Below, piece after piece: positions 42,676 through 42,868 of a stretch of DNA of 64,000 nucleotides (positions are counted from its first letter, which is position 1; each line of letters opens with the position of its first letter). Made by a program: the position numbers and the translations under genes. The notes below the pieces were generated by a model that was given only the letters and a program-made list of their open reading frames with translations, searched no databases and was not told where the DNA came from. The DNA lies in contig OY970323.1 in the NCBI GenBank assembly GCA_963716985.1, positions 608,001 through 672,000 of the forward strand. The letters run 5' to 3'. Origin of the DNA: an uncultured bacterium (GTDB taxonomy: Bacteria; Chlamydiota; Chlamydiia; Chlamydiales; SM23-39).

Positions 42676-42868
42676 AAGGGCTTACTTCCTCGAAGATCGT
42701 TTCGTGGAAGAAAAACATTCTCGATGGCCAAATTTTTGACCGAGGAAGCATTCTGCCGTCGGTCTTTAGCACTCTCAACGTAGCCATCTTATGGACTTTA
42801 AGCTAGGCCAACCAGGAGTTTGTTCGTCTCCTTTCCAGCCCCTCTCACTTTAGGGAGGAGTGATTGAC
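42676..42868 (-). ncRNA. Putative standalone IscB-type omegaRNA (HEARO-like), no iscB ORF
   Basis: Ordered motifs GTCAATCAC.CCTCCCTAAAG..GAGGGGCT, GGTTGGCC, GCTACGTT, AAGACCGAC, GAATGCTTCCTCG and complementary CGAGGAAG. Confidence 0.65.

What the first reader, a model, noticed from the sequence alone, without database searches (positions are those of the whole stretch)
42676..42868. Orphan IscB-type omegaRNA (HEARO-like) between surE and tRNA-Val
Seen on the minus strand, in the order I recall for IscB omegaRNAs: 5' GTCAATC pairing with GGTTGGC; an IS200/605-like CCTCCCTAAAG..GAGGGG hairpin; a CCAT/ATGG hairpin before GCTACGTT; then AAGACCGAC..GAATGCTTCCTCG, whose CTTCCTCG is perfectly complementary to downstream CGAGGAAG. 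No iscB ORF follows; the tRNA promoter region does. Established: the omegaRNA guide is the sequence 5' of the scaffold, and standalone omegaRNAs exist. Inference: the guide would be the surE 3' end (CAGAGCCCTCTTGATTATCC), and the RNA is compact (~190 nt), so it is either a decaying IS relic or a trans-acting or domesticated RNA.
Basis: partly seen in the sequence, partly recalled or inferred. Interest (0 to 1): 0.78.

Follow-up and report, generated by a model that had tools for sequence, protein, structure and literature searches.

The report
Decayed end of guide-RNA transposon
This is the eroded front half of a known RNA-guided jumping element that once landed between a gene and a tRNA promoter; it has lost the parts needed to work as a guide RNA and is most likely an ordinary relic.

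Summary
The named motifs are present. 42868-42742 (-) is the 5' half of a HEARO/IscB omegaRNA, i.e. an ISC (IS200/IS605) transposon end: 68.6 bits against a profile of 13 relatives, shuffle maximum 12.0. It is not an intact or compact omegaRNA. Rfam HEARO gives 12.9-14.1 bits against a cut-off of 83. It differs at 8 of 50 otherwise invariant columns (relatives 0-3), and the 5' half folds no better than shuffles. The partners of the central stem and the pseudoknot hairpin, and the ATGA-side transposon end, were not found. The genome has 9 full HEARO copies, 2 with iscB, plus other truncated copies. The element was not found at surE in 28 of 28 relatives' loci. No compact homologue was found in four collections. 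The CTTCCTCG/CGAGGAAG match is real but nested, not a pseudoknot. One oddity remains: the 3' tail folds well (z -3.0). This scan earlier reported gene-less copies of the same family elsewhere in this genome. Verdict: decayed IS relic, low interest.

The parts
42875..43708 (-). surE (277 aa), host gene upstream on the same strand; its read-through would transcribe the relic
   Evidence: ORF list; Pfam SurE E 7e-52
42869..42888 (-). Host sequence in the position of an omegaRNA guide (last 14 nt of surE plus 6 nt); nominal guide only
   Evidence: Sequence; single match in the genome down to 12 nt
42742..42868 (-). 5' half of a HEARO/IscB omegaRNA = GT-side end of an ISC transposon, mutated
   Evidence: 68.6 bits against a 13-sequence profile; 77% identical to own copy C1:389379; HEARO model positions 1 to about 112
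42839..42860 (-). Subterminal hairpin of the transposon end, with a 2-nt insertion and substitutions relative to relatives
   Evidence: Alignments; that Y1 TnpA binds such hairpins is from PMC4810608 passages
42741..42748 (-). CTTCCTCG: the former pseudoknot loop strand; the 3' arm of its hairpin is not present
42678..42741 (-). Tail without clear homology; probably a heavily eroded piece of the omegaRNA middle (CACGAAACG 42706-42698, CGAGGAAG 42692-42685). Predicted to fold with CTTCCTCG into a three-way junction
   Evidence: Borderline alignments; profile test negative; fold z -2.98
42649..42677 (-). Likely native tRNA promoter (TTGCAG, 17 nt, TAAGTT); inferred, not flagged by the consensus scan
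   Evidence: Lines up by eye with the spacers of L018 and L020, which lack the element; not found
42561..42635 (-). tRNA-Val(TAC)
   Evidence: ARAGORN, Rfam
42472..42546 (-). tRNA-Asp(GTC)
   Evidence: ARAGORN, Rfam

Best explanation
An ISC-type IS200/IS605 element of the sub-family that also sits at C1:389379 and C1:35378 (here 'family B') inserted behind surE in this lineage, in the orientation of transcription. It probably moved with a Y1 TnpA supplied in trans (inferred). It then lost everything 3' of the omegaRNA middle, including the ATGA-side end and any iscB, and gathered substitutions and small indels. Without the second end it cannot be excised. Without the central stem, nexus stem and pseudoknot hairpin it cannot fold as an IscB guide scaffold. 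It is probably co-transcribed with surE and does nothing specific. Shown: homology, truncation, loss of conserved columns and helices, missing second end, absence at this place in the relatives searched. Inferred: the order of events, read-through transcription and lack of function.
For: Head homology 68.6 bits against a shuffle maximum of 12.0. HEARO 12.9 bits, whereas 9 of the 13 matches in this genome pass the cut-off at 103.6-142.8 bits. The query differs at 8 of 50 columns invariant in 13 relatives; leave-one-out values for those relatives are 0-3. Head folding z +0.64, against -2.59 and -1.80 for the two own family-B heads; whole stretch z -1.2 to -1.6. Central-stem 5' strand: 9 of 9 pairs in 4 of 5 intact relatives (the anchor was misplaced in the fifth), best 7 of 9 with 4 Watson-Crick at a non-homologous place in the query. 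The hairpin arm that directly follows the loop in all 5 relatives is absent. The ATGA-side end has 23 hits genome-wide at E<=1; in a separate search of C1:645001-651500 only two hits at E 0.5-0.7 (about 3 bits) appeared, and there is no ATGA between the element and the tRNA. Decay series in the same genome: a 5'-half-only copy at C1:1049421, internally deleted copies at C1:1222537 and C1:531204, an internally deleted family-B iscB scrap at C1:1506007. The head profile hit 0 of 28 relatives' surE loci, 23 of which show tRNA-Val within the flank; the same-genus genome has a 36-nt spacer.
Against: The tail is better folded than expected for pure decay: z -2.98, 2 of 200 shuffles; 5 of 1000 shuffled tails but 48 of 1000 random genome segments fold as well. 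The boundaries were chosen after seeing the fold. The 8-bp helix is more perfect than in intact copies, and CGAGGAAG occurred in 0 of 1000 and GAGGAAG in 4 of 1000 random 66-nt genome segments. The 5' adaptor stem keeps all 8 pairs. The nearest relative is only 67% identical in SurE, so absence there dates the insertion only loosely and cannot test selection since then. The 8-of-50 count depends on the alignment, and the relatives were partly chosen for being intact.
Confidence: 0.86

Rival explanations
1. Relic with a second job in cis: after truncation the remnant refolded into a new three-way junction (GCUUCCUCG/CGAGGAAGU closing two hairpins) that ends at the tRNA promoter. It is kept because it stops, protects or marks the end of the surE transcript, or shields the tRNA promoter from read-through.
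For: Domain folds at -26.6 kcal/mol, MFE equals centroid, z -2.98; helix probabilities 0.77-0.90. It lies directly before the inferred -35 box. Contig pieces from 4 DNA runs of 4 studies that overlap the element carry 0-1 differences, which shows only that the same sequence recurs.
Against: No U-tract follows, and no terminator-like site was found on the minus strand. 48 of 1000 random genome segments fold as well. No homologue of the tail in 400 genomes of the order: best E 0.0018 per genome, the level expected by chance over 400 genomes. No covariation data exist.
Confidence: 0.08
2. A compact, functional omegaRNA that loads an IscB in trans, with the surE 3' end as guide.
For: Adaptor stem intact and the loop strand has a perfect partner. 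Two full-length iscB genes with RRXRR and HNH domains are in the genome. Gene-less elements that carry omegaRNAs acted on in trans are described (10.1101/2023.03.14.532601, passages; stated there for TnpB).
Against: The pairing is nested rather than a loop pseudoknot because the hairpin's 3' arm is absent. In OgeuIscB the pseudoknot hairpin, nexus stem and central stem form the core, and changing the pseudoknot strand abolished editing (PMC9640706, passages); mapping those names onto HEARO helices is my inference from their order. Both iscB genes belong to the other sub-family, 47% identical to a family-B IscB; family B is represented only by a 34-aa scrap. The guide has no second match of 12 nt or more in the genome. 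A compact-spacing pattern found no counterpart: 0 in genome contigs; 2 viral hits, identical and lacking the GTCAA start and hairpin; 7 metagenome hits, of which 4 are ordinary HEARO copies matched at an internal GAGG and 3 have no HEARO context; 2 of 401 phylum genomes, i.e. the query, an internally deleted own copy and one non-HEARO match.
Confidence: 0.03
3. The motifs are chance look-alikes in ordinary intergenic DNA.
For: Rfam HEARO score is far below cut-off, E 0.74-2.77; overall folding is not significant.
Against: BLAST E 5.9e-18, 77% over 131 query bases, to an own full HEARO copy; profile score 68.6 bits; an exact 25-mer from the element occurs in 4 loci of genome contigs, all HEARO matches with the standard 3' half.
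Confidence: 0.01

Closest known systems
HEARO RNA (Rfam RF02033) / IscB omegaRNA
   Same: 5' half in the same order: GUCAA/UUGAC stem, CCCUAAAGGG-type hairpin, CUACGUU, GAAUGCUUCCUC; host sequence 5' of it in the guide position; same orientation as the upstream gene, the bias reported in 10.1101/2023.03.14.532601 (section 5).
   Different: Only model positions 1 to about 112 of 211; 12.9-14.1 bits against 83; central stem, nexus stem and pseudoknot hairpin lack their 3' strands; no iscB.
ISC transposons with the N|ATGA target (e.g. ISC1-1_MA; PMC4810608, passages)
   Same: GT-starting end with a subterminal hairpin; the intact copies in this genome start with GTCA or a close variant and 9 of 9 ends examined abut ATGA.
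   Different: This copy has only the GT end; no second end and no ATGA.
PATE-like gene-less IS200/IS605 derivatives, including the gene-less HEARO copies of this genome
   Same: No protein gene, derived from the same ends; 7 of the 9 over-cut-off HEARO copies here carry no iscB.
   Different: Those keep both ends and a full scaffold; this one has one damaged end and half a scaffold.

Membership tests
HEARO / IscB omegaRNA (intact) | Score at or above the RF02033 gathering cut-off (83 bits) | tested here: not met
   14.1 bits, 12.9 bits
HEARO / IscB omegaRNA (intact) | 5' GUCAA/UUGAC adaptor stem | tested here: met
   8 of 8 pairs, 6 Watson-Crick
HEARO / IscB omegaRNA (intact) | Long-range central stem after CUAC and nexus stem | tested here: not met
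   No homologous 3' strands; the 5-nt nexus search was too short to discriminate, so that part rests on the alignment
HEARO / IscB omegaRNA (intact) | CUUCCUC in the loop of a hairpin, pairing as a pseudoknot with a 3' GAGG | tested here: not met
   Hairpin 3' arm absent; predicted helix is nested
HEARO / IscB omegaRNA (intact) | Cognate iscB adjacent or elsewhere in the genome | tested here: not met
   None adjacent; two intact iscB of another sub-family, only a scrap of family B. Cross-use by the other sub-family was not tested
HEARO / IscB omegaRNA (intact) | Expression and RNP formation | not testable with these tools
   No RNA holder listed
ISC / IS200-IS605 transposon remnant | Sequence homology to an ISC end | tested here: met
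ISC / IS200-IS605 transposon remnant | Multi-copy family in the genome, with Y1 TnpA available | tested here: met
   13 HEARO matches, 9 over cut-off; 2 full-length Y1 TnpA and 1 broken. That these TnpA serve these ends was not tested
ISC / IS200-IS605 transposon remnant | Not present at the orthologous site in relatives | tested here: met
   0 of 28 surE loci, 1.5-kb flanks; relatives too distant to rebuild the exact empty site
Mobile PATE-like element | Both ends present, followed by the ATGA target | tested here: not met

The most novel reading that the evidence does not exclude
A truncated omegaRNA was refolded by pairing-improving changes into a new, stable three-way junction that now acts in cis at the boundary between the surE transcript and the tRNA-Val/Asp promoter: an exaptation of a transposon guide-RNA scaffold as a host RNA element, caught in one lineage.
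Probability: 0.08. Interest if true: 0.5.

Novelty: already known. Interest (0 to 1): 0.12.

Why it matters
As a relic it matters little: it is one more step in a decay series of IscB elements in this genome and a caution that half an omegaRNA can keep its recognisable motifs and a convincing 8-bp complement after losing the scaffold. If the refolded tail were shown to act at the surE/tRNA boundary, it would be a rare traceable case of a guide-RNA scaffold recruited as a cis element. A working 190-nt natural scaffold without the central stem would matter for editing tools, but the evidence is against it.

Tried and rejected
Rfam scan of 41500-44000: only the tRNAs are significant. Compact-spacing pattern scans: 0; 2, no HEARO context; 7; none compact; 2 of 401 genomes, 3 matches. 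These need exact motifs, so a diverged compact family could be missed. Tail alone against 400 genomes of the order: chance-level hits only, 1-2 candidates scored per genome; against 28 relatives' surE spacers: none better than 6 of 100 shuffles. Whole element against the order: 10 of 399 scored relatives match, none beyond query position 142; G117 not scored. RF02033 in 5 relatives: one weak 20-bit match, not examined; in 100 family genomes: 20 with matches. Sequencing runs: no RNA holder listed; contigs of 4 DNA runs gave no variants or joints in the element, and no listed piece spans the whole stretch. Origin of CGAGGAAG: two alignments compete. One needs three deletions and makes it the 3' pseudoknot strand (34-58 of 1000 shuffles for the 4 closest relatives, 0 of 1000 for L076, 139-875 for the other 4). 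The other is near-colinear with the omegaRNA middle (22 of 29 columns with L047, 19 of 23 with L076; summed score reached by 6, 156 and 250 of 2000 shuffles under three scoring schemes). Neither is firm; I lean to the second because it needs one terminal loss. A predicted pairing of the nominal guide with the scaffold was set aside: z -1.34. A promoter-like site inside the element: 1 found, 0.5 expected. One search's anchor for the central stem was misplaced in own389 and the GCUUG anchor failed in L047; those rows were not used. No covariance model was built: there is no set of compact homologues. Paper search for IscB + HEARO + standalone found 0 papers; that standalone omegaRNAs are described in Altae-Tran 2021 is recalled, not seen.

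Full report
Observation. No iscB ORF follows.

Covariance model. Rfam HEARO (RF02033, cut-off 83 bits) matches the stretch at 14.1 bits, E 0.74, model positions 1-125 of 211, when 261 bases are searched, and at 12.9 bits in the whole genome. The same search gives 13 matches in the genome, 9 over the cut-off.

Family context. Two of the 13 carry a full iscB (C1:166141, C1:1818584; 442 aa, 96% identical, RRXRR and HNH domains). The other 7 over-cut-off copies are gene-less. Nine second ends examined all abut ATGA, the N|ATGA target described for some ISC transposons (PMC4810608, passages). Two full-length Y1 TnpA genes are present. The query's nearest own relative is the gene-less copy at C1:389379 (77%, E 5.9e-18). 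That sub-family ('B') carries iscB in other genomes of the order, and an exact 25-mer of the query occurs in 4 loci titled Rhabdochlamydiaceae, all with the standard 3' half. In this genome family-B iscB survives only as an internally deleted scrap at C1:1506007.

What is homologous. A profile of 13 family-B 5' halves, built without the query, scores 42868-42742 at 68.6 bits over its full length; the best of 1960 scored shuffles is 12.0. A profile of 9 3' halves scores the 66-nt tail at -0.8 bits, reached by 350 of 1899 scored shuffles. Pairwise tests are borderline and depend on scoring. The tail shares CACGAAACG with the omegaRNA middle. One alignment makes CGAGGAAG the 3' pseudoknot strand after three deletions. 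Another makes it the eroded base of the middle hairpin, followed by a single loss of everything downstream (22 of 29 columns with L047, 19 of 23 with L076). In L047 that middle stretch already pairs at 6 of 8 positions with the loop strand, so few changes would give the perfect match. I lean to the second reading but cannot settle it.

Decay. The query differs at 8 of 50 columns invariant among the 13 relatives; each relative left out in turn differs at 0-3 (alignment-dependent). The 5' half folds no better than shuffles (z +0.64; own family-B heads -2.59 and -1.80). The whole stretch gives z -1.2 and -1.6; ten other own copies range from -1.19 to -4.34, so whole-length folding alone does not separate it from the weakest of them. 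The adaptor stem is intact, but the subterminal hairpin has an insertion, the GCUUG/CAAGC helix is broken, the central stem has no homologous 3' strand, and the arm that closes the pseudoknot hairpin is absent. The CUUCCUCG/CGAGGAAG helix is therefore nested. [quoted passage not shown] No second end lies near the element and no ATGA lies between it and the tRNA. Similar wrecks occur elsewhere in the genome: 5' half only at C1:1049421, internal deletions at C1:1222537 and C1:531204.

Conservation. SurE was found in 28 of 40 relatives; 23 of the 28 loci show tRNA-Val downstream within the 1.5-kb flank (part of one row was cut from view). The head profile hits none of the 28. The same-genus genome has a 36-nt spacer whose sequence lines up with 42677-42636, the likely native tRNA promoter. 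The tail has no homologue above chance in 400 genomes of the order. A compact-spacing pattern found no compact family in genome, viral or metagenome collections or in 401 phylum genomes; the only HEARO-context match with shortened spacing was the internally deleted own copy. Contigs of 4 DNA runs from 4 studies carry the same sequence with 0-1 differences, so there is no variation to test.

Guide. The 20-mer has no second match of 12 nt or more in the genome, and its natural target, the empty site, cannot be regenerated without the second end (inference).

What stays unexplained. 42757-42676 folds into a well-defined three-way junction (z -2.98; 5 of 1000 shuffled tails, 48 of 1000 genome segments), with boundaries chosen after the fact. 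This allows a small probability of a second job in cis. No U-tract or minus-strand terminator-like site supports termination.

Literature seen: 10.1101/2023.03.14.532601 (passages and section 5), PMC9640706 (passages), PMC4810608 (passages), PMC13565253 (passages; domestication examples there concern TnpB). Other titles were seen only as search listings; one search returned nothing. No supplements were read; the published omegaRNA group models could bear on the membership score.

Verdict. A decayed, one-ended remnant of a known IscB transposon family (0.86). Exapted cis structure 0.08, functional compact omegaRNA 0.03. Interest 0.12.

Noticed in passing
G000:C1 (e.g. 1669794-1670017, 1003298-1003524, 35378-35615, 389149-389379, 1491365-1491590, 1919348-1919569): Gene-less full HEARO elements of about 350-385 bp whose second end abuts ATGA, in most cases apparently the start codon of a host gene; already reported by this scan.
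   Followed up: partly
G000:C1:1222537-1222970: Family-A copy with an internal deletion in the RNA and almost all of iscB deleted, both ends kept.
   Followed up: partly
G000:C1:1505980-1506130: Scrap of a family-B iscB in which an N-terminal piece runs directly into a C-terminal-like piece.
   Followed up: partly
G000:C1:235613-235567 (-): Weak, very short remnant of the GT-side end (12.1 bits, E 0.18).
   Followed up: no
L021, L023, L024, L028, L029, L031, L034, L035, L038 downstream of surE: Many relatives have 0.4-1.1 kb between surE and tRNA-Val that look by eye like one or two opposite-strand genes; this genome and its same-genus relative lack them. The genes were not identified with a tool.
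   Followed up: no
window 42875-42920: SurE here ends with a longer C-terminal tail than in the same-genus relative; tail length varies across the family.
   Followed up: no
L052 and L056: Family relatives also hold short GT-side ends that run straight into host sequence, i.e. similar truncated relics elsewhere.
   Followed up: no
L074:1-400: A metagenome HEARO whose middle joins directly to the middle of an iscB frame, another internal deletion.
   Followed up: no
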